Source of the DNA: a phage
Length of the DNA stretch: 64,000 nt
Direction: 5' to 3' (one strand)
Sequence record: PZ386972.1
Of the stretch, positions 26,890-38,900 are shown in pieces. Position 1 is the stretch's first letter. Each line of letters starts with the position of its first letter. Below the pieces are notes generated by a model. The model made no database searches. It was not told the origin of the DNA and was given only the letters and a program-made list of their open reading frames with translations. The position numbers were made by a program, and so were the translations under genes.

Positions 26890-26892
26890 CCA

Positions 26893-27044
26893 ATTTGCTG
26901 AAAGAATTGTTAAATCAATTCAGGCACGCGTAGGAACACTGTCTCCGTAATTGAAAGATGAGACACGGTTTGGAGAGGTATGCCGCTACACGCTACGGTG
27001 CTAACTCCGTCTAGGTGAAAATCCTAGTCAGCAATATAAATTTA
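26893..27044 (+). ncRNA. about 150 nt structured spacer between tRNA-Cys and tRNA-Asn (candidate small RNA)
   Basis: Hairpins such as GTCTC...GAGAC; no ORF. Confidence 0.25.
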
Positions 27045-27124
27045 GGGTCGTTAGCCAAGCGGTTTGGCGGTGGACTGTTAATCCATGTCGAAAGACAACG
27101 TAGGTTCGAATCCTACACGGCCCG
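27045..27124 (+). tRNA. tRNA with GTT anticodon (Asn) and unusually long 13-nt variable arm
   Basis: Acceptor GGGTCGT/ACGGCCC, D-arm GCCA...TGGC, anticodon stem GTGGA/TCCAT, loop CTGTTAA, variable GTCGAAAGACAAC, TTCGAAT T-loop, CCA encoded. Confidence 0.65.
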
Positions 27125-27229
27125 CCAAATTCTGTGTAGAGTTAAGTAAACCGGTAGCCAACCAGCTATCATTGCTGACATCGAATTCAGCCACAGATAC
27201 CATTTTCATTAATAACTGAGGAAACAAGC

Positions 27230-27415
27230 ATGTCCAAGAATGTAATTGCACAGTTAGAAGTTCATCGTGATAACACAGCTAATAACATTAAGTGCCGACA
27301 AAAAGATATTGAAGCTCAAAAGGCTGATCTTTTAATGAGTATTCGAGAGCTTAATGTACGAAAAGAGTTTCTTAAAGAACTTAATGCAGCTATTGAAAAA
27401 CTCAAAGCTGAGTAA
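27230..27415 (+). CDS. small coiled-coil protein
   Basis: ORF track. Confidence 0.35.
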   Translation: MSKNVIAQLEVHRDNTANNIKCRQKDIEAQKADLLMSIRELNVRKEFLKELNAAIEKLKAE

Positions 27416-27424
27416 ATGAATTAT

Positions 27425-27498
27425 GCGACCGGGGCTGGCTTGGTAATGGTACTCCCCTGTCACGGGAGGGAATGTGGGTTCGAATCCCATCGGTCGCG
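27425..27498 (+). tRNA. tRNA-Asp (anticodon GTC)
   Basis: Acceptor GCGACCG/CGGTCGC, anticodon stem CTCCC/GGGAG, loop CTGTCAC, T-arm GTGGG-TTCGAAT-CCCAT, CCA encoded. Confidence 0.8.
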
Positions 27499-27678
27499 CC
27501 AAATAAGGTAGGTTAGCTATGGAACGTAGGGAGTTTACTCCGGAAGAGATAGAGCAGATAAAAGAATCTGCTATGAAAAATGCTAGAATATCTCTGTCAC
27601 TGGAAGGTATCATTATAAGTGATGTAAACTTTGAAAAAATCAAAGCCATAGCTGATGAACTGGAAAAAGTAATTTAAT

Positions 27679-27751
27679 ACATCCATAGCTCAATGGTTAG
27701 AGCTACCGCCTCTTAAGCGGAGGGTTCTAGGTTCAAGTCCTAGTGGGTGTA
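27679..27751 (+). tRNA. tRNA-Lys (anticodon CTT)
   Basis: Acceptor ACATCCA/TGGGTGT, D-arm GCTC...GAGC, loop CTCTTAA, T-arm CTAGG-TTCAAGT-CCTAG, CCA encoded. Confidence 0.65.
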
Positions 27752-27780
27752 CCAAACTAAACTAGCACGAGAAATATGCT

Positions 27781-28128
27781 ATGATTAATGCTAAAGAAGA
27801 GTTGTTACTTGCCCTAAAGAATACTAAGTCTGAAGTTAAGTGTATTAAGATAGAATTCGGTTATTATGGGAACAAAGAAGTTTGGATATTACCCGTAGGT
27901 TATACAGAAAAAGATATTGAAGATTTTCTAAATAATCTAGACTTCAAATATGATTCTGGTTTCGGTGGACAATTGCTTTACGGTAACGTATGGTTTACTG
28001 ATGGAACTTGGTTAGAGCGTGGTGAATATGATGGTTCTGAATGGTGGGAGTATAAGACTACACCAGCAATCCCAGAAGAATGCCGAACAATTAATGGTGA
28101 AGTAGATCGTACTTTACTATTAAATTAA
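27781..28128 (+). CDS. hypothetical protein
   Basis: ORF track. Confidence 0.45.
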   Translation: MINAKEELLLALKNTKSEVKCIKIEFGYYGNKEVWILPVGYTEKDIEDFLNNLDFKYDSGFGGQLLYGNVWFTDGTWLERGEYDGSEWWEYKTTPAIPEECRTINGEVDRTLLLN

Positions 28129-28250
28129 CAAAATTTCAGTGCAGAACACGGAGCTAGCAATTCGGAAGTGCTGACTCATGATAGGCTGCCTATGTACTTG
28201 CGAAGCGGTCGTGTCCAAGACTCGGACTCTTGCACTGAAAACAATCAAAC

Positions 28251-28368
28251 ATTCTAGCGTGGTTGATGGGGAAACCAGCTTGGCTAGGGCAGAAGCTCGT
28301 TCGATTCGAGTGAAAGAATGGTTCTCGTAAGTCCGCACAAGTGATAACAGGTTCGAGTCCTGTCTAGA
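28251..28368 (+). ncRNA. 118-nt tRNA-like RNA: perfect 7-bp acceptor-like stem and canonical T-arm, no encoded CCA
   Basis: 5' ATTCTAG pairs with 3' CTAGAAT; T-arm ACAGG-TTCGAGT-CCTGT; internal second TTCGATT hairpin. Confidence 0.35.
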
Positions 28369-28383
28369 ATGACACTATAAAGT

Positions 28384-28494
28384 TTACTTATTATGTAGGT
28401 TCCGATAGATCGGCGGGTCTATTCTGGCATTTAAGAGAGGTCTCGCAAACTTCTTTGTCAGCCGTGGGGTTGATAGCCTCCAGGTGGCCTACAC
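28384..28494 (+). ncRNA. about 110-nt structured RNA closed by terminal helix
   Basis: 5' TGTAGGT pairs with 3' GCCTACA; internal hairpins; no ORF. Confidence 0.3.
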
Positions 28495-28520
28495 AATAAG
28501 TAAATTTATTAAAAATTCAT

Positions 28521-28549
28521 TTGCTATTCTGCTTAATTATCTGTATAAT
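28521..28549 (+). promoter_or_regulatory. T5-type early promoter
   Basis: TTGCTA-17-TATAAT. Confidence 0.6.
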
Positions 28550-28579
28550 ATATTTTATAAAGTGAGTTAACAAAATTAA

Positions 28580-28652
28580 CAGTGCGTAGCGCAGTTGGTA
28601 GCGTGGGAGCCTTGGATGCTTCGGGTCGCAGGTTCGAGTCCTGCCGCACTGA
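28580..28652 (+). tRNA. tRNA-Pro (anticodon TGG)
   Basis: Acceptor CAGTGCG/CGCACTG, D-arm GCGC...GCGT, loop CTTGGAT, T-arm GCAGG-TTCGAGT-CCTGC, CCA encoded. Confidence 0.75.
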
Positions 28653-28661
28653 CCAAACAAT

Positions 28662-28736
28662 TGCGGGTTAGATCTCTGGTAGAGATCGCTAGTCTCATAA
28701 GCTAGAAAGAGGTAGGTTCGATTCCTGCACCCGCTT
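28662..28736 (+). tRNA. tRNA with CAT anticodon (Met or Ile2)
   Basis: D-arm GATC...GATC, anticodon stem CTAGT/GCTAG, loop CTCATAA, TTCGATT T-loop, CCA encoded; 1-72 U-U mismatch. Confidence 0.6.
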
Positions 28737-28759
28737 CCATTTTAATAGAGGATTTCGAA

Positions 28760-28927
28760 ATGAAAGTATTTCGATTAGTAGTAAGTGACAAACGTTTAGG
28801 TAAGAATACCTCAAAATCCTTACTTGCTCATTATGGAAAAGATGAGAAAGAAGTAATGGCGGAGTTTGGGATTAATCACCCTTACTTGAAAGTTCACTCT
28901 ATTAAAGAAGTATATAATGGTTACTAA
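28760..28927 (+). CDS. small hypothetical protein (55 aa)
   Basis: ATG with GAGGA RBS between two tRNAs; below track cutoff. Confidence 0.3.
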   Translation: MKVFRLVVSDKRLGKNTSKSLLAHYGKDEKEVMAEFGINHPYLKVHSIKEVYNGY

Positions 28928-28928
28928 T

Positions 28929-29004
28929 AGATCGCTAGCTCAATAGGTTTAGTAGCATCCGACTTTTAATCGGAAGGTTCTGGGTTCGAGTCCCAGGCGA
29001 TCTA
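28929..29004 (+). tRNA. tRNA-Lys (anticodon TTT)
   Basis: Acceptor AGATCGC/GCGATCT, anticodon stem TCCGA/TCGGA, loop CTTTTAA, T-arm CTGGG-TTCGAGT-CCCAG, CCA encoded. Confidence 0.8.
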
Positions 29005-29026
29005 CCAATTTCAAGAAAAACGCAGT

Positions 29027-29054
29027 TGCTTGATGCTTAATTTCTTGTTATAAT
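29027..29054 (+). promoter_or_regulatory. T5-type early promoter
   Basis: TTGCTT-16-TATAAT. Confidence 0.55.
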
Positions 29055-29104
29055 ATTTATATAAATTGATGAGGATTTCTCCTCATCATAGTTCACTAAG
29101 GTAT

Positions 29105-29268
29105 TAGCTCGACCTAGGACTGGCTGCCAAAAAGCACGATCCCTACGATTCGGGAGAAGTTCTAGATTAGTCCACTAGATTCAGCGGCAACTGAATAGTG
29201 TATCGGGTTTGCGAGATGACGCGGTTCCTTCCGCTCGAAGCGAAGGTGCTGTAGTTACGCCGAGCTAA
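29105..29268 (+). ncRNA. about 165-nt structured RNA closed by TAGCTCG/CGAGCTA helix
   Basis: Long-range complementary 7-mers plus internal hairpins; no ORF. Confidence 0.3.
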
Positions 29269-29292
29269 TAGCCTTAGTAAACTAAAGAATTT

Positions 29293-29368
29293 GGGGAATG
29301 GGTCTGCATGGAGTGGACACCTCGCTTGCACCGAGGACATCAGAACGGTTCGATTCCGTTATTCTCCA
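29293..29368 (+). tRNA. tRNA-Ala (anticodon TGC)
   Basis: Acceptor GGGGAAT/ATTCTCC with G3-U70 wobble, anticodon stem CCTCG/CGAGG, loop CTTGCAC, T-arm AACGG-TTCGATT-CCGTT, CCA encoded. Confidence 0.75.
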
Positions 29369-29376
29369 CCAAATAC

Positions 29377-29450
29377 GCGTGATTGATGGAATTGGCATAC
29401 ATACCGTCCTTAGAAGTCGGGTTTTGAGGGTTCGAATCCCTTGTCACGCA
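29377..29450 (+). tRNA. tRNA with TAG anticodon (Leu by anticodon) but class I architecture
   Basis: Acceptor GCGTGAT/GTCACGC, loop CTTAGAA, 5-nt variable loop, T-arm GAGGG-TTCGAAT-CCCTT, discriminator A, CCA encoded; weak D stem. Confidence 0.5.
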
Positions 29451-29453
29451 CCA

Positions 29454-29565
29454 AATTTGATGGTCAGAGTAAATTAAACCTACTATCTCGGTTGAGCTGT
29501 TTTAATGGGTTCGAATCCCAGCGAGGCGTAACTGCCTGGCGTGATAGAGGCATCATCTTATTATT
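29454..29565 (+). ncRNA. about 110-nt segment containing an orphan T-arm-like hairpin (tRNA-like fragment or small RNA)
   Basis: TGGG-TTCGAAT-CCCA hairpin with no matching acceptor stem or CCA; AGGCGTAACTGCCT hairpin. Confidence 0.25.
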
Positions 29566-29653
29566 GGAAGAGCAAATCGAATTGGCGACGAAAACCGCTT
29601 GGAAAGTGGCTGACTGGTAAAACGGCTTGAGAGTTCAAATCTCTCCTCTTCCG
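29566..29653 (+). tRNA. tRNA-Ser (anticodon GGA), class II
   Basis: Acceptor GGAAGAG/CTCTTCC, loop TTGGAAA, long variable arm, T-arm GAGAG-TTCAAAT-CTCTC, CCA encoded. Confidence 0.7.
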
Positions 29654-29668
29654 CCAAACAATTTATAT

Positions 29669-29760
29669 GGTAGGTCAATCCAATGGCTGGCGCTGGACTC
29701 CGACTTGAAATCGGTTGATCGTAGTGATACGGTGTAAGGGTTCGATCCCCTTACCTACCT
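29669..29760 (+). tRNA. tRNA-Ser (anticodon TGA), class II
   Basis: Acceptor GGTAGGT/ACCTACC, loop CTTGAAA, long variable arm, T-arm AAGGG-TTCGATC-CCCTT, CCA encoded. Confidence 0.7.
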
Positions 29761-29764
29761 CCAA

Positions 29765-29910
29765 GTCTTGAAGTATGCCGGAATCGGTAGACGGGGCTGC
29801 CTAAAAGGTTTATAGGGAACATCCACTCCCTACAACATACCTCATAAAGCGGCTGAGATAAATGGTCTATCTCGTGAAGGTTCAAGTCCTTCTGCTTCTT
29901 GATACATCTA
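29765..29910 (+). ncRNA. about 145-nt structured segment with D-arm-like and T-arm-like hairpins but no complete cloverleaf
   Basis: GAGATA-AATGGTC-TATCTC and GAAGG-TTCAAGT-CCTTC hairpins; no CCA. Confidence 0.25.
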
Positions 29911-30014
29911 TGGCTCAAAGTGTAACGGTGCTATTTGATGCTCTTAGTAAGACTTTCCCGACATGCGTTCGGGAGTAAGCTGCTAAGGCTAGAATAGAAG
30001 AGTTTCTGAGAGCC

Positions 30015-30134
30015 GCCACAATTGAAAATTCGTACTCGTCTTGAGCTGCGTGCAATAGGAGATAACTTGATTAGTATTCTAGAACATGCTAATTGAGGAT
30101 GGTTTCGCTAACCCTGCGAGTTTTCAATTGTGGC
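30015..30134 (+). ncRNA. structured element closed by a perfect 14-bp helix whose 3' strand overlaps the 5' end of tRNA-His
   Basis: GCCACAATTGAAAA at about 30015-30028 is the exact reverse complement of TTTTCAATTGTGGC at about 30121-30134. Confidence 0.4.
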
Positions 30135-30203
30135 TATATCATAATTGGTTAATGATCCTGATTGTGAATCAGGCCTATGTGGATTCGAATTCCACTAGCC
30201 ACC
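30130..30203 (+). tRNA. tRNA-His (anticodon GTG)
   Basis: Acceptor GTGGCTA/TAGCCAC, anticodon stem CCTGA/TCAGG, loop TTGTGAA, T-arm GTGGA-TTCGAAT-TCCAC, discriminator C, CCA encoded. Confidence 0.8.
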
Positions 30204-30231
30204 CCAAATTAACTTAAATAGGAAATAAAAT

Positions 30232-30429
30232 ATGGCTGATTTCTGCAAACAATGCTCCATTGATATGTGGGGCAGAGATACTGGTGATCTTTCTGGTTTG
30301 ATTACAGAAGCTGAGGTCAAAGAAGGTTATGGTGCAGTTGTGATTTGCGAAGGATGCGGAGTTATTCGAGTAGATCATGAAGGCAAACGTTTAGAAGAAC
30401 AGGAAAACTTAGGAGAAACAAATGAGTAA
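30232..30429 (+). CDS. small Cys-containing protein
   Basis: ORF track. Confidence 0.4.
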   Translation: MADFCKQCSIDMWGRDTGDLSGLITEAEVKEGYGAVVICEGCGVIRVDHEGKRLEEQENLGETNE

Positions 30430-30658
30430 TGCTTTAATTAGTGAAATTATGTTAACACGTCTTGCAGAACTGCAAACTCTTCGAGATGAATCTCAGAATA
30501 ACTTAGCCTACCATAAACAGATGGTAGATACTCTTACTACTCGTATTGATACTTACGAGCGTGATATTGCAGCATTACAAGCTCTTTTCTCTGTATCAGC
30601 ACCAGATACGTTAGAACAGCCTGCTGTATCTCAGCCAGTAGAAACAGCATCTAGCTAA
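30422..30658 (+). CDS. hypothetical coiled-coil protein
   Basis: ORF track; overlaps upstream stop. Confidence 0.4.
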   Translation: MSNALISEIMLTRLAELQTLRDESQNNLAYHKQMVDTLTTRIDTYERDIAALQALFSVSAPDTLEQPAVSQPVETASS

Positions 30659-30667
30659 TAGCATTCT

Positions 30668-30740
30668 TGGGATGTAGATCAATTGGCAGATCGTCGGCCT
30701 CTGACTCCGAAGGTTCCACGTTCGATCCGTGGCATCCCAG
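30668..30740 (+). tRNA. tRNA-Gln (anticodon CTG)
   Basis: Acceptor TGGGATG/CATCCCA, D-arm GATC...GATC, loop CTCTGAC, T-arm CCACG-TTCGATC-CGTGG, discriminator G, CCA encoded. Confidence 0.7.
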
Positions 30741-30749
30741 CCAAACAAT

Positions 30750-30822
30750 TGGAGAGTAGTGTAACGGTTAGCACAACGGCCTTTGACTCCGTTAATGGTA
30801 GGTTCGATTCCTCCTTCTCCAG
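30750..30822 (+). tRNA. tRNA-Gln (anticodon TTG)
   Basis: Acceptor TGGAGAG/TTCTCCA, loop CTTTGAC, TTCGATT T-loop, discriminator G, CCA encoded. Confidence 0.65.
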
Positions 30823-30833
30823 CCAAGTAATAA

Positions 30834-30906
30834 GCGGTTAAGCACACGGGTTGTGTCGCAGGCCTTCCAAGCCTCGCTGAGTAGGGTTCGATTCCCTCTA
30901 GCCGCT
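30834..30906 (+). tRNA. tRNA-Gly (anticodon TCC)
   Basis: Acceptor GCGGTTA/TAGCCGC, loop CTTCCAA, TTCGATT T-loop, CCA encoded. Confidence 0.6.
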
Positions 30907-30925
30907 CCAACTTTAAGGAAACATT

Positions 30926-31177
30926 ATGCACGTTTTTGAGTTTCGTAATAAAAGTACCGATAAACGAGTTATTGTTATTGGAGAAACATACCGAGCATAC
31001 GAACAAACTGACGGCTCTGTTATCCTAAACGATGAGAAAGGAGGTTTTAGCTTTTATCCAGAAGAACCTTATGAAGAGTTTCGAAAACAATTTAACCTAG
31101 ACTGGAGAAAGCATTTAAACACTGTTGCTTCATCTGTAGTATTGCCAACTACCAGTACTGTACTCTCTAATGGCTGA
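30926..31177 (+). CDS. hypothetical protein
   Basis: ORF track. Confidence 0.4.
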   Translation: MHVFEFRNKSTDKRVIVIGETYRAYEQTDGSVILNDEKGGFSFYPEEPYEEFRKQFNLDWRKHLNTVASSVVLPTTSTVLSNG

Positions 31178-31342
31178 TAACCTAAAAGTCAAGATCGATA
31201 AACAAAAGAAACGTGTAGAAGTAGAGATTGGTGAAGAACGTGTAGCCTTCACCTTTGAATTTCTACAACAAATGGCAATGGCGGTTATGACTGATAAGTC
31301 TCCTGTTATTGAAAAAGAAATCCCGTTGAAATAACGGGTTCT

Positions 31343-31426
31343 GCTGGGTTGGCAGAATGGTTGAATGCACCTGATTTGTAATCAGGAGGAGTAATCCCGT
31401 TGCAGGTTCGAATCCTGTGCCCAGCA
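31343..31426 (+). tRNA. tRNA with TGT anticodon (Thr) and long 15-nt variable arm
   Basis: Acceptor GCTGGGT/GCCCAGC, anticodon stem CCTGA/TCAGG, loop TTTGTAA, T-arm GCAGG-TTCGAAT-CCTGT, CCA encoded. Confidence 0.55.
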
Positions 31427-31611
31427 CCAACTTAAGGACTATTATGTTTAAATTATTAGTAGTTATCTGGTATAGTCAATCAAATAGAGCGAATACCTCC
31501 CACGTTATAGACTTTAATACTAAAAATGAAGCTGAAAAAGCATATTCTAATTTAATAGAACGTAATAAAGAATCTCGTAGTATAGTTTATGAAGTGACTA
31601 AACTTTATTAA
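31417..31611 (+). CDS. small hypothetical protein (track start overlaps tRNA 3' end; true start probably the internal ATG)
   Basis: ORF track. Confidence 0.3.
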   Translation: MPSTNLRTIMFKLLVVIWYSQSNRANTSHVIDFNTKNEAEKAYSNLIERNKESRSIVYEVTKLY

Positions 31612-31619
31612 AAATTCAT

Positions 31620-31648
31620 TTGCTTTCTCTCTTATTTATTGTTATAAT
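31620..31648 (+). promoter_or_regulatory. T5-type early promoter
   Basis: TTGCTT-17-TATAAT. Confidence 0.6.
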
Positions 31649-31678
31649 ATTTATATAAATTAATGAGAGGGAAGCCAA

Positions 31679-31972
31679 ATGAAACGTTATCTTTCTGTTG
31701 TGTTCCAAACTGGTGGTCAACGCTATACCTATGAATTTCCTGGCTCTTGGAAGATCAAAGAGGGTGATCAAGTAGTAGTGTTAACACCGCGTGAGGGTTT
31801 CAAGGTAGTAACGGTTAAGCAAGTATTTCCAAAAGAGCATGAACCAGCTAAAGGCATTCGCTATAAGATGATTCATGGTGTAGTTCGTCAAGTACCACGA
31901 GCGGAAGTCGAAATCAAAGTAGATAAAGATGGTAGACTTAAATATACCTCTTGCTTAGATGAGCTGCTATAA
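31679..31972 (+). CDS. hypothetical protein
   Basis: ORF track, GAGGGAAG RBS. Confidence 0.45.
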   Translation: MKRYLSVVFQTGGQRYTYEFPGSWKIKEGDQVVVLTPREGFKVVTVKQVFPKEHEPAKGIRYKMIHGVVRQVPRAEVEIKVDKDGRLKYTSCLDELL

Positions 31973-32178
31973 TGAGGATTACTTTCACAGAAAAGATCAT
32001 GAGTAATGGTGTTATGATCATTACTGCATGGGATGGCAATCAGTGGTGTAGTGTTTCAGGTATTAAGCCTGAAGAACAAACACTAGAAAATATCTCAAAG
32101 ATTAAGCGAAGAATGGCAGAACGTGCACGACTTCCAGGTGCACCTAGAAATGGCAAACGTTCTGCTGCAAAATGTTAA
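31972..32178 (+). CDS. hypothetical protein
   Basis: ORF track, ATGA start-stop overlap with upstream gene. Confidence 0.4.
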   Translation: MRITFTEKIMSNGVMIITAWDGNQWCSVSGIKPEEQTLENISKIKRRMAERARLPGAPRNGKRSAAKC

Positions 32179-32179
32179 T

Positions 32180-32253
32180 GCTTCGGTAGCTTAGCGATCT
32201 AAAGCACTCGGCTGATAACCGAGAGATCGGGGGTTTAAATCCCTCCCGGAGTA
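32180..32253 (+). tRNA. tRNA-Ile (anticodon GAT) with atypical TTTAAAT T-loop
   Basis: Acceptor GCTTCGG/CCGGAGT, anticodon stem CTCGG/CCGAG, loop CTGATAA, T-arm GGGGG-TTTAAAT-CCCTC, CCA encoded. Confidence 0.7.
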
Positions 32254-32352
32254 CCAAATTTAGGAATTAAGACTATGCGTCCAGGAAAGTTTAAAAAAGC
32301 TAATTGGTCTAAAGAGTATAAAGAATACTTACTTAGTCTAGTAAAACATAAC

Positions 32353-32425
32353 AGTTAGTTGGCAGAGTGGTTATGCACCTCCTTCATACGGAGCGACTAC
32401 AGTGGTTCAAATCCACTACTAACTA
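32353..32425 (+). tRNA. tRNA with CAT anticodon (Met or Ile2)
   Basis: Acceptor AGTTAGT/ACTAACT, loop TTCATAC, T-arm AGTGG-TTCAAAT-CCACT, CCA encoded. Confidence 0.65.
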
Positions 32426-32465
32426 CCATTAAAAGAGCTAGAGATAGCTAAATTTAGGAGCAGCT

Positions 32466-32660
32466 ATGTTAACAATTAAAATAATGTCAGCCAAGAATGG
32501 TGAACATATCCATACAGGCAAAAGTGTGAGCTTTAATCCTAGAAATAAAAGATTGGCTATAGTTGGAGTAGACCAAGCCATCTTTTTAAAAGAAGATGAA
32601 GTAGCATATGTCATGAACCAAACTGGTAAGACAGTTTCCGTATACTATGGAAAAGTATAA
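32466..32660 (+). CDS. hypothetical protein
   Basis: ORF track. Confidence 0.4.
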   Translation: MLTIKIMSAKNGEHIHTGKSVSFNPRNKRLAIVGVDQAIFLKEDEVAYVMNQTGKTVSVYYGKV

Positions 32661-32702
32661 AGAATAAATAGCTGAGCCAAATTCTAACATCTGGGAGATC
32701 TA

Positions 32703-33071
32703 ATGAAAGCATATCAAAATCTTAAATCTGGCGTAATTAACCTTGTTCATGAAAATCAGATTATTCAGCTATACTCCGACAACGGTGAACTTAAACAGAA
32801 AGTTCTAGTTGAAGATCTAGAAGGTATCACACCACAATTCGATCCCGAAGCCTTCCGTGAAGTCAAAGTGGAAGTCGCCCCTCAAATCGAAGGTGGTCAG
32901 CACCTAAATGTCAATGTGTTAAGCCGTGATCAGCTTTTGGATGCGCAGAAACATCCTGAAAAATATCCTCAGTTGACCATCCGTGTCTCTGGCTACGCTG
33001 TTCGATTTAACGCACTGACTCGTGAACAACAGAACGACGTTATTAGTCGTACATTTACTCAGGCGATGTAA
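32703..33071 (+). CDS. autonomous glycyl-radical cofactor protein (GrcA/YfiD-like)
   Basis: C-terminal [27 protein letters not shown] matches the glycyl-radical domain signature of PFL/GrcA. Confidence 0.6.
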
Positions 33072-33152
33072 TGGGGTTTGGGTACGATTTCTCCGAACTA
33101 CGTGAGGTAGTCGAGCAAACTCCATTTATCTCCCAAGTTTTAGGAGAAATGT

Positions 33153-33467
33153 GTGGATCGAGCATTAAGACGCCATCACCGGCAACGTGTGAAGAACAAC
33201 CGCAGGAAGTATTGGACAGTCTTCCCACATGAAGAAAGCCCTAAGCGGTTAGGTATTATCACTACTACTCCTTGCATCTGTTCTTGTTGGATGTGTGGGA
33301 ACCCTCGCAAATACTATAAGAATAGTAAAGCAGGCATGAAAATTTCGGAGATTAGAAAAATGGAAGCAATGATTATGGGCATCTCAAATGATGAATTTGA
33401 TGGCTTTGTAGGATTCGGAGAAGGAATCAGCTCAAGCTGTTTCGAAGATGAACGCCCCGATCTGTGA
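33153..33467 (+). CDS. hypothetical Arg-rich/Cys-rich protein (alternative overlapping small ORFs exist in the other two frames)
   Basis: ORF track (GTG start); see findings for the overlapping coupled ORFs. Confidence 0.3.
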   Translation: MDRALRRHHRQRVKNNRRKYWTVFPHEESPKRLGIITTTPCICSCWMCGNPRKYYKNSKAGMKISEIRKMEAMIMGISNDEFDGFVGFGEGISSSCFEDERPDL

Positions 33468-33476
33468 TTAATAACA

Positions 33477-33512
33477 AACCCCAGCTATTGAATAAGTAGT
33501 CTGGGGTTTTTC
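33477..33512 (+). terminator. rho-independent terminator
   Basis: AAACCCCAG...CTGGGGTTTTT hairpin. Confidence 0.65.
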
Positions 33513-33588
33513 TGTATATAGGTAAATAATTTATGTATAACAAAATTCATCCACATTAGGTTAATTTAAAAGACTTAATGGAGGTAAT

Positions 33589-33936
33589 ATGAGCCGTACT
33601 TATCGTAAACAATCTGGTGATCAGTGGTGGAAGTCTAAAGAACAATTCTCTCAAGAATATTCTTTCTTCAAAGAAAATGGCTACTGGATTCGTGTTATTT
33701 ATGCTAAATCCTGGGATGATATAAGACAGGAAATGAAGGAAGCAACCATTCGTAATGAGAAAAAGGATGGTTATAACTGGAATTCTATTAGTAAGAATGT
33801 TAAGTGGCATTCTAATAAAATGGTTCGTCAAGGGAATCGTCAAGAACTCCACCGCGTGATGAAAGATCCAGAAAATTACGACTATAATCGCGATCATGAC
33901 ATGCGTAAGCGTGGATTATGGTGGTGCTATGACTAA
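33589..33936 (+). CDS. hypothetical protein
   Basis: ORF track, GGAGG RBS. Confidence 0.45.
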   Translation: MSRTYRKQSGDQWWKSKEQFSQEYSFFKENGYWIRVIYAKSWDDIRQEMKEATIRNEKKDGYNWNSISKNVKWHSNKMVRQGNRQELHRVMKDPENYDYNRDHDMRKRGLWWCYD

Positions 33937-33953
33937 ATTCTGAAATAATTCAT

Positions 33954-33982
33954 TTGCTAAACCTCTCTTTTCTTGATATAAT
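33954..33982 (+). promoter_or_regulatory. T5-type early promoter
   Basis: TTGCTA-17-TATAAT. Confidence 0.6.
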
Positions 33983-34012
33983 ATATTTATAAATTGATGA
34001 GAGAGGTTTGAA

Positions 34013-34294
34013 ATGAAAAATCGCCTAGACTGTGCTGTTCATGTTCTTGAACATGATGTTGTGGGAACCTGTATGTCTTACCATGAAGCAGGTCGTTTAA
34101 TTAAAGAACGTGTGGCAGATGTGTGCGGGTTGAAGATTACTGCTGAGGAAGCTGATGATCTCTTAGGTCAAGCACTGGAGAAAACCGAAATGTTCCTCTG
34201 CGATTCTTGTTCTTGGTGGTGTGAAGCTCACGAACGTTCTTTCAACGATTATGATGTATGTCGTGATTGTAGCGGGGAGGATGAAGATGAATAA
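34013..34294 (+). CDS. Cys-rich hypothetical protein
   Basis: ORF track. Confidence 0.45.
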   Translation: MKNRLDCAVHVLEHDVVGTCMSYHEAGRLIKERVADVCGLKITAEEADDLLGQALEKTEMFLCDSCSWWCEAHERSFNDYDVCRDCSGEDEDE

Positions 34295-34586
34295 GTTTAT
34301 TATTGCACTGATGATCTCCGCAGTTAGTTTCGGTTCTCTGGCATCTACCAAAGTTTCTATGAAAAATGGTAATGTTAAAGTCCAACAGAACGGCATTATT
34401 ACTGAATATGGTAAAGTTCGTGATGTTAAGGAACGTAATGGTAAAGTAGAAATATATACTAATAAAAACTTCTCTACTCCAGCCGTTACTATTAGCAAAC
34501 GCGGTGAAATAACCACTCAACGTACTAATAGCTCTAGTTCTTTTACTTGTCGTTATGATTGCGACTTTGAAGGTGAAGATGAATAA
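34287..34586 (+). CDS. secreted small protein with signal peptide
   Basis: MNKFIIALMISAVSFGSLAST signal sequence; ATG 34287 with GGAGG RBS preferred over track start 34221. Confidence 0.45.
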   Translation: MNKFIIALMISAVSFGSLASTKVSMKNGNVKVQQNGIITEYGKVRDVKERNGKVEIYTNKNFSTPAVTISKRGEITTQRTNSSSSFTCRYDCDFEGEDE

Positions 34587-34998
34587 TTTAGACCCTAGAA
34601 TTAAATTTGCAATTACAGAAATCCAAGATCAAATTGATGAGGACTTCACTGTTTGGTCAAGGTCTGGTAATGGAGAATATTGCCAGCTTTATAGCATGAA
34701 AATGGGTATCTCAATTGAGCTTAATATCAACTCTGAAGGTAGAGTAGAAGCCCAACCCATGTTCAGTGTTCCAGGCTTCTCTGGATTTGTTTCAGGTATA
34801 AAATTGTGTCTACCAAATAACCATCTTCATCGAGTTATTTGTCAGCTAGAGACTATCAAGCATTTCTTGCCAGAAGATAACATTAATGACTACTACCACG
34901 AAGTTATAGCAGCTCATATGATGAAAGAATGTAAACGTCGGAGAGAAGAACGTGAAAAGGCTAAACATCAACAGCACGGTGCAGATTCCAGCAACTAA
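34555..34998 (+). CDS. hypothetical protein
   Basis: ORF track. Confidence 0.45.
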   Translation: MIATLKVKMNNLDPRIKFAITEIQDQIDEDFTVWSRSGNGEYCQLYSMKMGISIELNINSEGRVEAQPMFSVPGFSGFVSGIKLCLPNNHLHRVICQLETIKHFLPEDNINDYYHEVIAAHMMKECKRRREEREKAKHQQHGADSSN

Positions 34999-35248
34999 GG
35001 ATATTTTAACATTCCTACGTAGTGAGAATACCCAGTTTTGGCATGACTATATTCAGGAAAATAAAAATAATCCAGATATAGTTGCTTTTGCCAAGAAACG
35101 TATTGGGGAGTATAAAGATCCAGAGATTAAAGATGGGATGATTACTATGCAGTTATGGATAGCTATGAAAACCTTTGGACCCACTATGAGTCTAGGATTT
35201 ACTCCACTGTTTACTGATATTCTAATTAATGAAAAGGATCTGAAATGA
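34952..35248 (+). CDS. hypothetical protein
   Basis: ORF track. Confidence 0.4.
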   Translation: MKRLNINSTVQIPATKDILTFLRSENTQFWHDYIQENKNNPDIVAFAKKRIGEYKDPEIKDGMITMQLWIAMKTFGPTMSLGFTPLFTDILINEKDLK

Positions 35249-35529
35249 TTATCTCTCCCTTTGCTCTTTGGTTCGTCATCGGGTCTGTGGTTGCTATTTA
35301 CAGCTTGATTGATGATCTATATATTTCTAAGAATAAAGATGTAATATTATACGTTATACATAAAACCCGACCATTAGACCTACCACCTCTTGATGATAAA
35401 ACATTACTCAGGTGTGCTAGATCTATGATATTTATTATGGATATTCTTTTAGGGCCAGCATCTGTACTTTTCTTTTATAGAAAAACTCGTAATATGAAAA
35501 AGTTTAAAGCTGAAATGCGGAATATTTAA
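35245..35529 (+). CDS. small membrane protein
   Basis: ORF track; hydrophobic N-terminal helix. Confidence 0.4.
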   Translation: MIISPFALWFVIGSVVAIYSLIDDLYISKNKDVILYVIHKTRPLDLPPLDDKTLLRCARSMIFIMDILLGPASVLFFYRKTRNMKKFKAEMRNI

Positions 35530-35603
35530 AGAACTCGCGTAGGACCGAGTTGCGTCACCTGCAACTGTTACGGATAAGGGAGTCGTGCCCCTTAGTGCGG
35601 TAA

Positions 35604-35984
35604 GTGGTGAGGTGGCTGCTAGCCATAACTGGAGATGATATGACTATATTACTAATTCTTGTTACAACTTGGTTTTTAATTGGTGCTGGATATGCGATAG
35701 CTATTATTAGACATTTGGACGAATATTCTGCTGAATGGTTTGTTAAGTATCTACGTATTGATGATCAGGAACATGAATTTAAGGATGAAAAGCAGAAAAA
35801 GGCAGTAGAGAAAATGACAGGCAAAGAATGTTTATTCTACATGCGTATTGTAGGATTCTTTGGGTTATTAATTGCTGGCCCAATTGGTTCTACTATTGCT
35901 CCGTACAAAGAAACAGTTGCTGACATCAAATTATGGAGAAATGCAGGGGTACTACGCAAAGCTAGAGAAACTAATATCACATAA
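35604..35984 (+). CDS. membrane protein (2-3 TM helices)
   Basis: ORF track; hydrophobic segments. Confidence 0.4.
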   Translation: MVRWLLAITGDDMTILLILVTTWFLIGAGYAIAIIRHLDEYSAEWFVKYLRIDDQEHEFKDEKQKKAVEKMTGKECLFYMRIVGFFGLLIAGPIGSTIAPYKETVADIKLWRNAGVLRKARETNIT

Positions 35985-36028
35985 GATTGACACTAAGTCA
36001 ACTTACTAGCAAAAGCAAATAATGACAA

Positions 36029-36064
36029 AGCCCAGCCTGCACTTTTGCGACTGGGCTATTTTTG
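36029..36064 (+). terminator. rho-independent terminator
   Basis: AAGCCCAG...CTGGGCT hairpin then ATTTTTG. Confidence 0.6.
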
Positions 36065-36078
36065 TAATAAAATTTTAG

Positions 36079-36107
36079 TTGCATAGATGCCCGAACTTTT
36101 GTATAAT
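36079..36107 (+). promoter_or_regulatory. T5-type early promoter
   Basis: TTGCAT-17-TATAAT. Confidence 0.55.
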
Positions 36108-36138
36108 ATATTCATAGATTGAGGCAAGAGGATTAAAT

Positions 36139-36837
36139 ATGAGGATTATTTCTAAATTCGCAGATGTATATGATTTGCAGAACAGTTTGTTTGATCCCGA
36201 TCGTGTTTGGGAGCGTAAAACTGAAGAGTTACTGGTTAAAGTAACTGATGATGCAGAAAAGAACATCGTGCATAGTCGCCAGGTATTTCGTGAAGATTCA
36301 CTATCTTTCCGTGGAGACTTCGAATACTTTGTAAATCCATTGTTCGTTGCAGGTGAAGTTTACTGGTTACACGAGCTGTACTGCTGGCATCCAGAGTTTA
36401 GCTTCAAAACGTTCGACCTCGACACTATGTTCGATAAAATGGAAGAGATGGGATTGCATGCTCGCTCTTACTTAATGGATAAGAGTCGTGGAGATGTTCG
36501 TGAAACAATGCGTGATTTGCTCGTTGAAGCAAAACCTAAAGCAGAACGTATCTTGTCCGAACTGCGTGTACCGATTGCATATGTGAAAGGTATCAAGAAG
36601 AACGATAACGATGATGTTCGTAACTTCGTGATTCAGACTAACATTCGTTTCCATCAGTCAGGTATTCCGTGGCAGGAAATTGAAAGTAACTTATACCGTT
36701 TACACCAAGTTCTCGAACAGTATATCTTCGGTGTACTAGGAACTGGTGAGCCTGATATGATTAAAGTATCAGATAAAGATAGGTTAGCAGCGCATGGATT
36801 TGATACAAAAACTTCTTTCAGGAATATGGCATGGTAA
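36139..36837 (+). CDS. hypothetical protein
   Basis: ORF track. Confidence 0.5.
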   Translation: MRIISKFADVYDLQNSLFDPDRVWERKTEELLVKVTDDAEKNIVHSRQVFREDSLSFRGDFEYFVNPLFVAGEVYWLHELYCWHPEFSFKTFDLDTMFDKMEEMGLHARSYLMDKSRGDVRETMRDLLVEAKPKAERILSELRVPIAYVKGIKKNDNDDVRNFVIQTNIRFHQSGIPWQEIESNLYRLHQVLEQYIFGVLGTGEPDMIKVSDKDRLAAHGFDTKTSFRNMAW

Positions 36838-37243
36838 GTGGTATATCCTGGGAGCAGGTCTAGCGATAGGCATCGGATTCGGTGCTTATCACTTAGTAGA
36901 TAAAGTGGAGACTTTAGCGGGAGATCTTGCAGTAGCTACTAAAAAGATCTCTTCTCTAGAGACTTCCCTTAATAAGGTGAAAGCTGAAAGCGAACTTCGT
37001 GAGACTAGAATGAATCAGTATTTCACGATGAATAATATTTCTCAAGCAGATCTAGACAAAAAGATTAAGCAGCTAGATAAAGCTCTTAGTCGTCAAGATG
37101 TTATCGCTGCAAAACCTGGATTGGTAACATTAATTGCTAAAAAGCAGAATAAAGAGTTCGAGGAAAGATTAGCGTGTTTAACTGGAAACTTGGAGTACTG
37201 CTCGCAGCCACAATCACAATCACAGGCTGTGCAGAAGAAATAA
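36794..37243 (+). CDS. i-spanin-like protein (N-terminal TM helix plus periplasmic coiled coil)
   Basis: TM segment WYILGAGLAIGIGFGAY followed by heptad-rich region; 3' end overlapped by lipoprotein gene in another frame. Confidence 0.4.
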   Translation: MDLIQKLLSGIWHGKWYILGAGLAIGIGFGAYHLVDKVETLAGDLAVATKKISSLETSLNKVKAESELRETRMNQYFTMNNISQADLDKKIKQLDKALSRQDVIAAKPGLVTLIAKKQNKEFEERLACLTGNLEYCSQPQSQSQAVQKK

Positions 37244-37527
37244 AACCAGAGCCATCTCATGAGTTAAAGCAAGCTCATGTAGATTGGCCTAAAGGACTTC
37301 AACCTTGTAGCTTTGACTTTAAATTTGAAAAGAAATTAGCTACAAATGGGGAAGATGGCGTAGTAGTTGTTATACCATACAAAGATTGGAATGCAAAAGC
37401 AAAATGTGAGGAAGCAGTTTACTCTTACATTTCACGACTGACTGGTATGGTCTGCTTTTATCGTCAAGATTTACAAGAAAAACGTTGCTTAGTTTACTAT
37501 CCACCAATTAACAATAGGAAAGATTAA
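37174..37527 (+). CDS. outer-membrane lipoprotein (o-spanin-like), start embedded in the previous gene
   Basis: Signal peptide with lipobox LLAATITITGC; embedded/overlapping arrangement typical of Rz/Rz1 pairs. Confidence 0.4.
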   Translation: MFNWKLGVLLAATITITGCAEEIKPEPSHELKQAHVDWPKGLQPCSFDFKFEKKLATNGEDGVVVVIPYKDWNAKAKCEEAVYSYISRLTGMVCFYRQDLQEKRCLVYYPPINNRKD

Positions 37528-38279
37528 TGTCAGTATTAGTCGGTTTACATGGTGAAGCTGGTTCGGGAAAAGATACCGTTGCAAAATTAATTATCGATTG
37601 GTGTAATGACACGTATCCAACGTGTTTATCTCGTCGTTATAGTTTTGCTAAGCCCGTTTATGAACTTGCATCCGTAATCCTCGGTGTAACTCCAGAGTTT
37701 CTAGGAGAGCGCAGGGGGAAAGAGATTGACCAATGGTTTACGGTCACACAATCTCAGTTGGAACGAGCCAGGGATGTGTGGTTTAAGTACGGTATCGATA
37801 AGTTTGAAGACTTCTCGTACGTTTGGCCTATTTTTGAGGAAAAATATCTTAATCCTCAACAACTTATCTCAGAGAATAAAGAAGACGGACTTTATAGTTT
37901 ATTTATTTCTCCGAGAAAAATGTTACAGCTCGTAGGGACAGAGCTAGGAAGGCAGCTGGTGCATGAACGCATTTGGCTCATAATTCTGGAGCAATCCATC
38001 GCTAAAGACGACCCAGACGTCGCCGTAATAACAGATGTTAGATTCCCCAATGAAGGAGAGCTACTCAGAGAAACAAACCATTTAGATATGGATTCTTTGA
38101 TAGTAAATGTAGTACCCGCTGAGCAGAAGTTTACTATTAAATCAGATCATCCATCTGAAAGTGGTATTCCTGCAAAATATATTACCCACGAATTAGTTAA
38201 TAAATTCGATGGTATCAATAACCTTAAACTAGAAGTTTATAACTTCTGTGACTTAGAGCTAGAACCACTAGTTGAATAA
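37527..38279 (+). CDS. deoxynucleoside monophosphate kinase
   Basis: 250 aa; P-loop GLHGEAGSGKDT at N-terminus; T5-type dNMP kinase size and position. Confidence 0.6.
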   Translation: MSVLVGLHGEAGSGKDTVAKLIIDWCNDTYPTCLSRRYSFAKPVYELASVILGVTPEFLGERRGKEIDQWFTVTQSQLERARDVWFKYGIDKFEDFSYVWPIFEEKYLNPQQLISENKEDGLYSLFISPRKMLQLVGTELGRQLVHERIWLIILEQSIAKDDPDVAVITDVRFPNEGELLRETNHLDMDSLIVNVVPAEQKFTIKSDHPSESGIPAKYITHELVNKFDGINNLKLEVYNFCDLELEPLVE

Positions 38280-38291
38280 TCAAGGATCGCT

Positions 38292-38891
38292 ATGACTAAT
38301 AAAAAAGAAGAAAAGACTAACCTGTTTCACTCCATTCGCCAATCTAATGAGTATACCTTTTTCTTTGATGAAGAATTAGGCCCGCCGGATGAATACCGTG
38401 ATTTATCAATGGTACTTATGCAGGCAAATGAGGACGACGAAATTAATCTGATGATTAATGGCCCGGGTGGTTATGTTGATACTGCTGCACAGTTATCTAA
38501 CTTAATTGCTAATTGCCGTGGAACAGTTATAGGACATCTGGTTGGTCCTAGTGCTTCTGCTTACTGCACAATTTTCCTATCCTGTCATGGATGGGTGGTA
38601 CATCCACATGCTACGCTAATGGGACACACGTTCTCTGGCGGATTCTGTGAGAAAGGTCAAGAAATCAAGAAAGCCTATGAATCTTACAACAAGTTCGTAG
38701 AAGATATGATGCTAGATGTCTACTATCCGTTCTTCTCAATAGATGAAATCGACGAGATGGTAAAAGACAACAAAAATATCTATCTAGATAGCAAGGAAAT
38801 CCATAAGCGTATTGAAATCTTGGCAAAATATCGATCTGAGCAATATAATAAAGCCCATTTACCTAAATCCGAGAAGCACAACGAAGAGTAA
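38292..38891 (+). CDS. ClpP-like serine peptidase
   Basis: MINGPGGYVDTAAQL resembles the ClpP INSPGG motif; GPSASAY and MGHTFSGG around candidate Ser/His. Confidence 0.5.
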   Translation: MTNKKEEKTNLFHSIRQSNEYTFFFDEELGPPDEYRDLSMVLMQANEDDEINLMINGPGGYVDTAAQLSNLIANCRGTVIGHLVGPSASAYCTIFLSCHGWVVHPHATLMGHTFSGGFCEKGQEIKKAYESYNKFVEDMMLDVYYPFFSIDEIDEMVKDNKNIYLDSKEIHKRIEILAKYRSEQYNKAHLPKSEKHNEE

Positions 38892-38900
38892 GTAATTTTA

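What the first reader, a model, noticed from the sequence alone, without database searches (positions are those of the whole stretch)
32703..33071. Stand-alone glycyl-radical cofactor (GrcA-like) gene in a phage that also encodes NrdD
The C-terminus carries the RVSGYAV glycyl-radical motif of PFL/GrcA-type proteins, while the phage nrdD (6061..7935) carries its own RVCGYLG glycyl-radical site. A spare-part glycyl-radical domain could rescue oxygen-damaged host pyruvate formate-lyase or the phage NrdD during anaerobic infection.
Basis: partly seen in the sequence, partly recalled or inferred. Interest (0 to 1): 0.5.

Follow-up and report, generated by a model that had tools for sequence, protein, structure and literature searches.

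The report
Phage copy of GrcA spare-part protein
This T5-like phage carries a small gene copying the oxygen-sensitive radical-bearing tail of the host enzyme pyruvate formate-lyase, a "spare part" already tested in phage T4 and E. coli and already annotated in T5-like phages, so it is real but ordinary.

Summary
ORF 32703..33071 (+) encodes a 122-aa protein whose residues 61-122 are 79% identical to the C-terminal glycyl-radical domain of E. coli PflB and 77% to that of GrcA/YfiD, with RVSGYAV intact. NrdD (6061..7935, minus strand) carries RVCGYLG.

The window is a T5-like phage (Tequintavirus). The gene is the ortholog of T5.056 (95% aa). Identical proteins are already in GenBank, named "autonomous glycyl radical cofactor" or "pyruvate formate-lyase". 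The T4 homologue (vs.6/Y06I) and E. coli YfiD were shown in 2001 to be activated by PFL activase and to restore O2-cleaved PFL.

The gene is under purifying selection (dN/dS 0.02-0.18). It sits in a tRNA/small-ORF operon with a T5 P11-like promoter and a conserved terminator.

Most likely mechanism: host PflA puts the radical on Gly97, and the protein replaces the damaged radical domain of host PflB, sustaining fermentation after host shut-off.

Rescue of phage NrdD is not supported. There is no similarity beyond the 5-residue motif, and PFL activase accepts RVSGYAV but not RVCGYLG.

An untested extension is that rescued PFL supplies formate, the reductant of T4-type NrdD.

Already known; low interest.

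The parts
32703..33071 (+). GrcA-like gene (ortholog of T5 gene T5.056), 122 aa plus stop
   Evidence: ORF. Pfam, NCBIfam, PHROG and PDB matches. 95% aa identity to T5.056. 100% identical to proteins of Salmonella phages Th1 and S131.
32693..32697 (+). Shine-Dalgarno-like GGGAG, 5 nt upstream of the ATG
   Evidence: Read directly from the sequence.
32703..32882 (+). N-terminal half (aa 1-60), a diverged counterpart of the GrcA N-terminal region that in YfiD promotes radical installation
   Evidence: No pairwise similarity to E. coli GrcA except the REVxVEVxP linker at aa 51-60. Profile chain: T5-like vs T4/jumbo-phage N-termini E=1.3e-4; T4/jumbo vs bacterial GrcA E=7.9e-6. dN/dS 0.05-0.18. 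Role in YfiD from the PMC8683613 abstract.
32883..33068 (+). C-terminal glycyl-radical domain (aa 61-122), equivalent to PflB residues 698-759
   Evidence: 79% identical to PflB, 82% to TdcE, 77% to GrcA. 36 invariant columns across 70 phage and bacterial GrcAs. The AF2 model superposes on 2pfl at rmsd 2.5 A over 51 columns and on 6owr.
32982..33002 (+). Gly loop RVSGYAV; radical glycine Gly97 at 32991-32993
   Evidence: Sequence. The identical heptapeptide is a substrate of PFL activase (PMC13450708).
31620..31648 (+). Probable operon promoter (TTGCTT, 17 nt spacer with TG, TATAAT), equivalent to T5 promoter P11
   Evidence: Near-identical alignment to the T5 stretch annotated 'promoter P11'. 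Assigned by homology to an annotation, not tested here.
32180..32428 (+). tRNA-Ile(GAU) and tRNA-Met(CAU), last genes of a 22-tRNA cluster, in the same transcription unit upstream of the gene
   Evidence: ARAGORN and Rfam. Same order in T5, DT57C, saus132 and SH9.
33071..33467 (+). Downstream small ORFs of unknown function: 33071..33232 (53 aa, start overlaps the grcA stop as TAATG) and 33153..33467 (104 aa, cysteine cluster)
   Evidence: phrog_31464 and phrog_4499; no Pfam, NCBIfam or PDB match.
33476..33511 (+). Intrinsic terminator hairpin plus U-run closing the operon
   Evidence: Identical to the T5 stretch annotated 'rho-independent transcription terminator'. RNA fold -19 kcal/mol, z=-4.8.
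6061..7935 (-). Phage NrdD (class III ribonucleotide reductase) with its own RVCGYLG site; context only, not part of the GrcA unit

Best explanation
[quoted passage not shown] It is made early in infection from a tRNA/small-ORF operon. Host pyruvate formate-lyase activase (PflA, a radical-SAM enzyme that the phage does not encode) abstracts a hydrogen from Gly97 in the RVSGYAV loop. The radicalised C-terminal domain then docks onto host PflB whose own radical domain has been cleaved by oxygen at Gly734, or is otherwise inactive, and restores pyruvate to acetyl-CoA plus formate. T5-type phages destroy host DNA, so the host cannot replace PflB or its own GrcA. The phage copy would therefore keep fermentative energy and acetyl-CoA supply running in micro-oxic gut conditions. 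Shown here: sequence and fold identity of the domain, conservation, purifying selection, and operon anatomy by homology. Taken from the literature on homologues: activation by PflA and PFL rescue. Inferred: the benefit to the phage.
For: (1) Residues 61-122 are 79% identical to PflB 698-759 and 77% to E. coli GrcA, with every residue of RVSGYAV conserved. (2) The best PDB hit is YfiD (6owr, E=1.4e-30), and the model's C-terminal domain superposes on YfiD and PFL. (3) The best NCBIfam hit is TIGR04365 GrcA (E=3.5e-35). (4) The GrcA-specific linker REVxVEVxP is present, so the gene descends from a GrcA-type gene, not from a fresh capture of the pflB 3' end. (5) T4 vs.6 is annotated GrcA and aligns full-length at about 53% identity. 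T4 Y06I and YfiD were shown to be radicalised by PFL-AE and to restore O2-cleaved PFL (PMC8683613). (6) PFL-AE accepts the RVSGYAV peptide (PMC13450708). (7) dN/dS is 0.02-0.18 across seven T5-like orthologs, with zero non-synonymous changes in the C-terminal domain in several pairs at dS 0.2-0.66. (8) About 436 phage records carry a copy at 80% or higher identity, and 1585 records carry any homologue. (9) The host supplies the partners: pflA and pflB are in E. coli K-12, and the query matched DNA in all 5426 complete E. coli genomes, the best-listed matches being in pflB.
Against: No experiment exists on any T5-type protein. The N-terminal half, needed in YfiD for efficient radical installation, is the most diverged in the family, and the protein scores 121 bits against the TIGR04365 cut-off of 170. 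However, the validated T4 protein also falls below it at 151 bits. Whether PFL rescue matters for phage fitness is unknown, even for T4.
Confidence: 0.8

Rival explanations
1. It is a spare part for the phage's own NrdD: it replaces the oxygen-cleaved glycyl-radical domain of the class III ribonucleotide reductase.
For: Both genes are in the same genome, and both are glycyl-radical proteins that oxygen cleaves. The phage lacks its own NrdG, so NrdD maintenance could be a problem.
Against: BLASTP shows no similarity between the two proteins (E=5.9). Only R-V-x-G-Y is shared. The NrdD radical domain has a different sequence and is preceded by Cys-rich CxxC pairs. The GrcA-like domain is 79% identical to PFL instead. 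PFL-AE discriminates RVSGYAV from RVCGYLG (PMC13450708). Reviews state that spare parts are known only for formate-lyases.
Confidence: 0.03
2. The target is another PFL-type host enzyme, chiefly TdcE (2-ketobutyrate formate-lyase), rather than or in addition to PflB.
For: The C-terminal 62 residues are slightly closer to TdcE (82%) than to PflB (79%) or GrcA (77%), including the TdcE-like FNALTREQQ and VISRTFTQA stretches.
Against: The difference is 2 residues in 62, so it carries no statistical weight. At the nucleotide level pflB is the best E. coli match (78.5%; 76.3% against 74.2% for tdcE). TdcE is a minor, threonine-induced enzyme (general knowledge). No spare-part activity on TdcE has been reported.
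Confidence: 0.1
3. It is a decoy or inhibitor: it soaks up host PflA, SAM or flavodoxin, or blocks PFL, to redirect host metabolism rather than repair it.
For: Phage copies of host protein fragments are sometimes dominant-negative. The N-terminal half differs strongly from bacterial GrcA.
Against: A decoy would not need all 36 invariant positions of the radical domain, including those that pack against the PFL barrel. The T4 homologue restores rather than inhibits PFL. The C-terminal domain is under very strong purifying selection.
Confidence: 0.04
4. It is a functionless remnant of captured host DNA.
For: It is a small ORF among many unknown ORFs in a tRNA region. Annotations are inconsistent ('acetyltransferase-related', 'pyruvate formate-lyase', 'hypothetical').
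Against: It has an intact frame, an RBS, dN/dS far below 1 in both halves, and is conserved in hundreds of genomes of two genera. There is no recent nucleotide similarity to host genes (71-76%).
Confidence: 0.01

Closest known systems
Phage T5 gene T5.056 (YP_006884.1) and its orthologs in Tequintavirus/Epseptimavirus (e.g. DT57C_000049, 'putative autonomous glycyl radical cofactor GrcA')
   Same: Same gene: 95% aa identity, same length, and the same position after tRNA-Ile/tRNA-Met and before T5.055 and the terminator. Proteins 100% identical to the window's are in Salmonella phages Th1 and S131.
   Different: The window has an extra 64-aa ORF (32466..32660) between tRNA-Met and the gene. In T5 the gene starts 14 nt after the tRNA.
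Phage T4 vs.6 / Y06I (NP_049730.1), a biochemically validated phage spare part for PFL
   Same: A stand-alone protein of about 120 aa starting MKAYQ, aligning full-length (about 53% identity), in the same PHROG (phrog_1209), with the same RVSGYAV domain.
   Different: T4's C-terminal 175 nt are 171/175 identical to E. coli grcA, indicating a recent exchange with the host. The T5-type gene is only 71-76% identical to any E. coli gene. The N-terminal halves are related only at profile level (E=1.3e-4). T4 encodes NrdG; this phage lineage does not (PMC3653736).
E. coli GrcA/YfiD (b2579; PDB 6owr)
   Same: Size, architecture (N-terminal region, REVxVEVxP linker, PFL-like radical domain), 77% identity over the last 62 aa, and 56% overall in a global alignment.
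   Different: Residues 1-50 show no pairwise similarity. The protein is below the TIGR04365 equivalog cut-off (121 vs 170 bits; E. coli GrcA scores 234). It is encoded in a phage tRNA operon instead of a stress/FNR-regulated chromosomal gene.
C-terminal glycyl-radical domain of PflB (residues 698-759) and TdcE
   Same: 79% and 82% identity; the same Gly loop and flanking helices.
   Different: This is only the radical domain. There is no catalytic barrel and no Cys418/Cys419, so it cannot be a formate-lyase on its own. The common database names 'pyruvate formate-lyase' and '2-ketobutyrate formate-lyase' for this 122-aa protein are misnomers.

Membership tests
[quoted passage not shown] | Small stand-alone protein (about 120-130 aa), not part of a full-length glycyl-radical enzyme | tested here: met
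   122-aa ORF bounded by its own RBS and stop. Nothing upstream resembles PFL; the neighbours are tRNAs and small unknown ORFs.
[quoted passage not shown] | C-terminal glycyl-radical domain with the PFL-type loop RVSGYAV and the radical Gly | tested here: met
   PF01228 at 66.4 bits against a cut-off of 22.2. RVSGYAV at aa 94-100, invariant in a 70-sequence alignment.
[quoted passage not shown] | The domain duplicates the C-terminus of PFL (about residues 698-759) in sequence and fold | tested here: met
   79% identity to PflB 698-759. The AF2 model matches 2pfl at rmsd 2.5 A over 51 columns and matches 6owr. The model is only of medium confidence (pLDDT 73.5; aa 60-71 below 50).
[quoted passage not shown] | N-terminal region of about 60 residues homologous to that of GrcA (needed for efficient activation in YfiD) | tested here: inconclusive
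   Only the linker (aa 51-60) matches E. coli GrcA directly. Homology is supported transitively through T4/jumbo-phage proteins (hhalign E=1.3e-4, then 7.9e-6; direct comparison negative). Q5 is nearly invariant family-wide.
[quoted passage not shown] | Score above the curated equivalog cut-off of NCBIfam TIGR04365 (170 bits) | tested here: not met
   121 bits, with the match limited to aa 50-122. Controls: E. coli GrcA scores 234. The experimentally validated T4 vs.6 scores 151 and three other phage homologues 135-137, all below the cut-off. The cut-off therefore delimits bacterial GrcA, not the function.
[quoted passage not shown] | Radical installed by PFL activase; the activated protein restores activity to O2-cleaved PFL | not testable with these tools
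   Known for YfiD and T4 Y06I only (PMC8683613). The heptapeptide identical to this protein's loop is a PFL-AE substrate (PMC13450708).
[quoted passage not shown] | Partner enzymes (PflB and PflA) available in the cell | tested here: met
   pflA and pflB are in E. coli K-12. The query matched DNA in all 5426 complete E. coli genomes (median 3 places), and the best-listed matches lie in pflB. No activase gene was found in the window or in the complete genome of a 97%-identical relative.
Pyruvate formate-lyase / 2-ketobutyrate formate-lyase (the name used in many database records) | Full catalytic barrel of about 760 aa with the Cys418/Cys419 active site | tested here: not met
   Only the last 62 residues of the TIGR01255 model are matched (85.9 bits against a cut-off of 994). 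The protein is 122 aa.
Class III ribonucleotide reductase radical domain (NrdD) | RVCGYLG-type loop and similarity to the NrdD C-terminus | tested here: not met
   The loop is RVSGYAV. BLASTP against the phage's own NrdD gives E=5.9 on an unrelated stretch.

The most novel reading that the evidence does not exclude
The phage GrcA and the phage NrdD form one functional circuit built on host activases. By keeping host PFL active after host shut-off, the GrcA-like protein secures not only acetyl-CoA and ATP but also formate, the reductant consumed by T4/E. coli-type class III ribonucleotide reductase. This would explain why GrcA homologues occur in phage lineages that carry NrdD (T5-like, T4-like). 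The strongly diverged N-terminal half of the T5-type protein might additionally change when or how PflA activates it, for example without prior PFL damage. Nothing here tests this. It rests on co-occurrence in T5-like and T4-like phages, on the NrdD being T4-like, and on the published idea that PFL-derived formate may feed class III RNR (PMC13450708).
Probability: 0.25. Interest if true: 0.4.

Novelty: already known. Interest (0 to 1): 0.12.

Why it matters
It matters little as a discovery. The family has been known since 2001, the T5 gene was flagged by its InterPro glycyl-radical domain in the original T5 annotation, and hundreds of records already call it GrcA. It has two modest uses. First, annotation hygiene: many records name this 122-aa protein 'pyruvate formate-lyase', '2-ketobutyrate formate-lyase', 'acetyltransferase-related' or even 'ribonucleotide reductase subunit', and all of these are wrong. 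Second, it is a reminder that T5-type phages, used widely as biocontrol and therapy agents in the gut, carry two glycyl-radical proteins (GrcA-like and NrdD) but no activase. Their anaerobic performance should therefore depend on host PflA and NrdG.

Tried and rejected
(1) Rescue of NrdD. Rejected for lack of similarity and because of activase loop specificity.

(2) A phage-encoded activase. A CX3CX2C regex over all ORFs of at least 60 aa in the window and in 43 kb of a relative found only the 104-aa ORF 33153..33467, right next to the gene. That ORF has no Pfam, NCBIfam or PDB match and is too short for a radical-SAM core. It also occurs in Erwinia, Rhizobium and Psychrobacter phages (whether those carry a GrcA homologue was not checked). 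It was rejected as an activase and left as an unknown.

(3) An ordered, novel N-terminal domain. AF2 predicts four beta-strands at pLDDT of about 80. The same is predicted for an enterobacterial GrcA control, whose E. coli homologue is disordered by NMR. The prediction therefore carries no weight.

(4) Recent capture from the host. Rejected for the T5-type gene (71-76% nt identity to grcA, pflB and tdcE), although it is true for the 3' half of T4 vs.6.

(5) Origin of the C-terminal domain from identity matrices. Values of 77-85% to everything give no resolution.

(6) Hidden RNA or antisense features. Rfam finds only tRNAs, and the minus-strand ORFs are 33-68 aa with no support.

(7) Literature on T5-type GrcA. 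None was found. PMC9112899 could not be read.

(8) The generic promoter/terminator scan missed both the P11-like promoter and the long-loop terminator. They were recovered by alignment to annotated T5.

Full report
**Observation**

A GGGAG ribosome-binding site ends 5 nt before the ATG. The C-terminus reads ...[42 protein letters not shown] is aa 94-100, and the candidate radical glycine is Gly97 (nt 32991-32993).

The second element of the finding also checks out, with one correction. The nrdD ORF at 6061..7935 lies on the minus strand. It encodes 624 aa with ...TRRVCGYLGNPG... near the C-terminus and matches the T4 NrdD crystal structures at E=1.5e-177.

**What the window is**

The 2 kb around the gene and the first 12 kb of the window are 96-98% identical in nucleotides to many T5-like siphoviruses of Escherichia and Salmonella (slur09, SP33, SCF, AKFV33 and others). 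Where the records are classified, these belong to Demerecviridae, Markadamsvirinae, Tequintavirus.

The layout nrdD(-)/phoH/nrdA/nrdB is the one described for T5, SPC35 and EPS7 (PMC3653736). A cluster of 22 tRNA genes runs from 22030 to 32428. The gene of interest follows the last two of them, tRNA-Ile and tRNA-Met.

**Identity of the protein**

- Pfam finds only the Gly_radical domain (PF01228, 66.4 bits against a cut-off of 22.2).
- The best NCBIfam model is TIGR04365, 'autonomous glycyl radical cofactor GrcA' (E=3.5e-35).
- The best solved structure is the NMR structure of E. coli YfiD/GrcA (6owr, E=1.4e-30), followed by PFL chains aligned over PFL 698-759.
- Over the last 62 residues, identity is 79% to E. 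coli PflB, 82% to TdcE, 77% to GrcA, and 82-85% to GrcA-like proteins of jumbo and Vibrio phages.
- In a 70-sequence alignment of phage and bacterial GrcAs, 36 columns are invariant. All lie in the C-terminal domain and include the whole [14 protein letters not shown] stretch.

An AlphaFold2 model has only medium confidence (mean pLDDT 73.5; aa 60-71 below 50). Its C-terminal domain nevertheless retrieves YfiD (E=2.9e-5) and PFL (rmsd 2.5 A over 51 columns) as the only significant PDB matches, followed by other glycyl-radical enzymes.

**The N-terminal half**

Residues 1-50 show no pairwise similarity to E. coli GrcA. Only the linker [10 protein letters not shown] matches YREVPVEVKP. That linker is GrcA-specific, since PflB has DGYFHHEAS there. 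The gene therefore descends from a GrcA-type gene rather than from an independent capture of the 3' end of pflB.

Profile comparisons link the N-terminal halves transitively. T5-type against T4/jumbo-phage proteins gives E=1.3e-4, and T4/jumbo against bacterial GrcA gives E=7.9e-6. The direct T5-type against bacterial comparison is negative.

This divergence is why the protein scores 121 bits on TIGR04365, below the curated 170-bit cut-off. As a calibration, E. coli GrcA scores 234, while the experimentally validated T4 protein scores 151 and three other phage homologues score 135-137. The cut-off thus separates bacterial GrcA from phage versions and says nothing about function.

AF2 predicts beta-strands with pLDDT of about 80 in the N-terminal half. 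It does the same for an enterobacterial GrcA control, whose E. coli homologue is disordered in solution (PMC8683613 abstract). I give that prediction no weight.

**Is it a working gene?**

Seven T5-like orthologs were compared: the window, SP33, SCF, DT57C, saus132, Ob_P and SH9. All are 122 codons long with no indels. Nei-Gojobori dN/dS is 0.02-0.18 for informative pairs.

The N-terminal half gives 0.05-0.18. The C-terminal half gives 0-0.16, with no non-synonymous change at all at dS 0.2-0.66 in several pairs. Both halves are therefore under purifying selection as protein.

tBLASTn finds a copy at 80% or higher identity in about 436 phage records. It finds some homologue in 1585 of 50,697 records. 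Most are T4-like phages at about 53% full-length identity, plus jumbo phages and Aeromonas and Vibrio phages.

A rough comparison of organism counts suggests the gene is almost universal in Escherichia and Salmonella T5-likes (271+129 records matching the gene region against 281+132 matching the nrd region). It is rarely detectable at the DNA level in Klebsiella relatives (4 against 82).

**Expression context**

Alignment to the annotated T5 genome shows three things:

- The window keeps the T5 'promoter P11' stretch: TTGCTT, a 17-nt spacer with TG, then TATAAT, at 31620-31648.
- The gene order is ORF, ORF, tRNA-Ile, tRNA-Met, (extra 64-aa ORF), grcA-like, T5.055-like ORFs.
- The T5 'rho-independent terminator' is retained base for base, at 33476-33511 (-19 kcal/mol, z=-4.8).

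These assignments rest on homology to annotated features, not on transcript data.

**Mechanism**

The literature held in the library states the following. E. coli YfiD and T4 Y06I are radicalised by PFL activase. Both form a complex with oxygen-cleaved PFL and restore its activity. They are the only validated spare parts (Wagner et al. 2001, as summarised in PMC8683613; review PMC13450708). T4 vs.6 is the gene annotated GrcA in the T4 RefSeq record. That vs.6 is the same gene as Y06I is from memory.

PFL activase installs the radical on the heptapeptide RVSGYAV but not on the NrdD-type RVCGYLG (PMC13450708). The window's protein has the former loop and its NrdD has the latter. BLASTP finds no similarity between the two proteins.

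The best-supported mechanism is therefore as follows. Host PflA radicalises Gly97, and the protein substitutes for the destroyed radical domain of host PflB (possibly also TdcE). The benefit to the phage is inferred: it would maintain fermentative acetyl-CoA, ATP and formate production when the host can no longer resynthesise PflB or GrcA.

No activase gene exists in the window or in the complete genome of a 97%-identical relative. Both phage glycyl-radical proteins must therefore rely on host activases.

**A speculative extension**

The phage NrdD is of the T4/E. coli type. Enzymes of that type use formate as reductant (Mulliez et al. 1995, listed in the reference list shown; the T4 case is from general knowledge). 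The 2026 review itself raises the idea that PFL-derived formate may be consumed by formate-dependent class III RNR.

I could not test co-occurrence genome-wide with the tools available.

**Comparison with the known, and novelty**

The gene is the ortholog of T5.056 (95% aa identity), which the T5 annotators flagged through InterPro IPR001150. DT57C and SP33 call it a GrcA. Proteins 100% identical to the window's are deposited for Salmonella phages Th1 and S131.

It is thus already known as a sequence and as a kind. What does not exist is any experiment on a T5-type protein or any paper discussing it.

Interest is low. A specialist would not be surprised, and no open question becomes newly testable.

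Noticed in passing
L003:7558-7920 (-) (phage T4 vs.6) versus L005:4067-4450 (-) (E. coli K-12 grcA): T4 vs.6 is a mosaic. Its last ~175 nt are 171/175 identical to E. coli grcA, while the first ~210 nt are at background identity (~50%), and similarity stops at the stop codon. This suggests a recent gene conversion of the phage gene's 3' half by the host gene. The T5-type gene in the window shows no such tract.
   Followed up: partly
window 33153..33467 (+): A 104-aa ORF immediately downstream of the GrcA-like gene has an Arg-rich N-terminus and a cysteine cluster PCICSCWMCGNPRK (it fits CX3CX2C). It is in phrog_4499 and has no Pfam, NCBIfam or PDB match. Homologues occur in Erwinia, Rhizobium, Serratia and Psychrobacter phages. 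It is too short to be a radical-SAM activase and looks more like a zinc-knuckle protein; function unknown.
   Followed up: partly
window 33071..33232 (+): A 53-aa ORF (phrog_31464) has a start codon overlapping the GrcA-like stop (TAATG), suggesting translational coupling. It overlaps the 104-aa ORF in another frame by 80 nt. Database records disagree on which of the two is annotated.
   Followed up: no
window 1..64000 and L002/L004/L013 (Salmonella phage SCF, whole genome): The phage has NrdD but no NrdG, and a GrcA-like protein but no PflA. No ORF of at least 60 aa with a radical-SAM CX3CX2C motif exists apart from the 104-aa ORF above. The literature notes that many phages carry nrdD alone. 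Which activase serves the T5-type NrdD appears untested.
   Followed up: partly
window 32466..32660 (+): A 64-aa ORF (phrog_3909) sits between tRNA-Met and the GrcA-like gene. It is absent from T5, DT57C and saus132, where the gene follows the tRNA directly or after a non-coding gap. It is a small indel polymorphism of the operon.
   Followed up: no
window 22030..32428 (+): ARAGORN finds a cluster of 22 tRNA genes interleaved with small ORFs. Rfam additionally calls tRNA-like matches at 21456-21527 and 23818-23892 that ARAGORN did not report.
   Followed up: no
window 4758..5576 (-) and about 3929-4435 (-): Two Sir2-family (NAD-dependent deacetylase-like) ORFs lie just downstream of nrdD on the minus strand, as annotated in related phages. 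This is unusual phage cargo next to the nucleotide-metabolism block.
   Followed up: no
GenBank/RefSeq records of T5-like phages: The same 122-aa protein is variously named 'pyruvate formate-lyase', '2-ketobutyrate formate-lyase', 'formate-lyase', 'putative acetyltransferase-related protein', 'ribonucleotide reductase subunit' (a 67-aa fragment in Citrobacter phage YZU-L1) or 'hypothetical protein'. Only a minority use 'autonomous glycyl radical cofactor'.
   Followed up: yes
window 33589..33936 (+): The next gene after the terminator, with its own T5 P10a-like promoter, encodes a 115-aa DUF7295 protein (PF23967, 180 bits) of unknown function.
   Followed up: no
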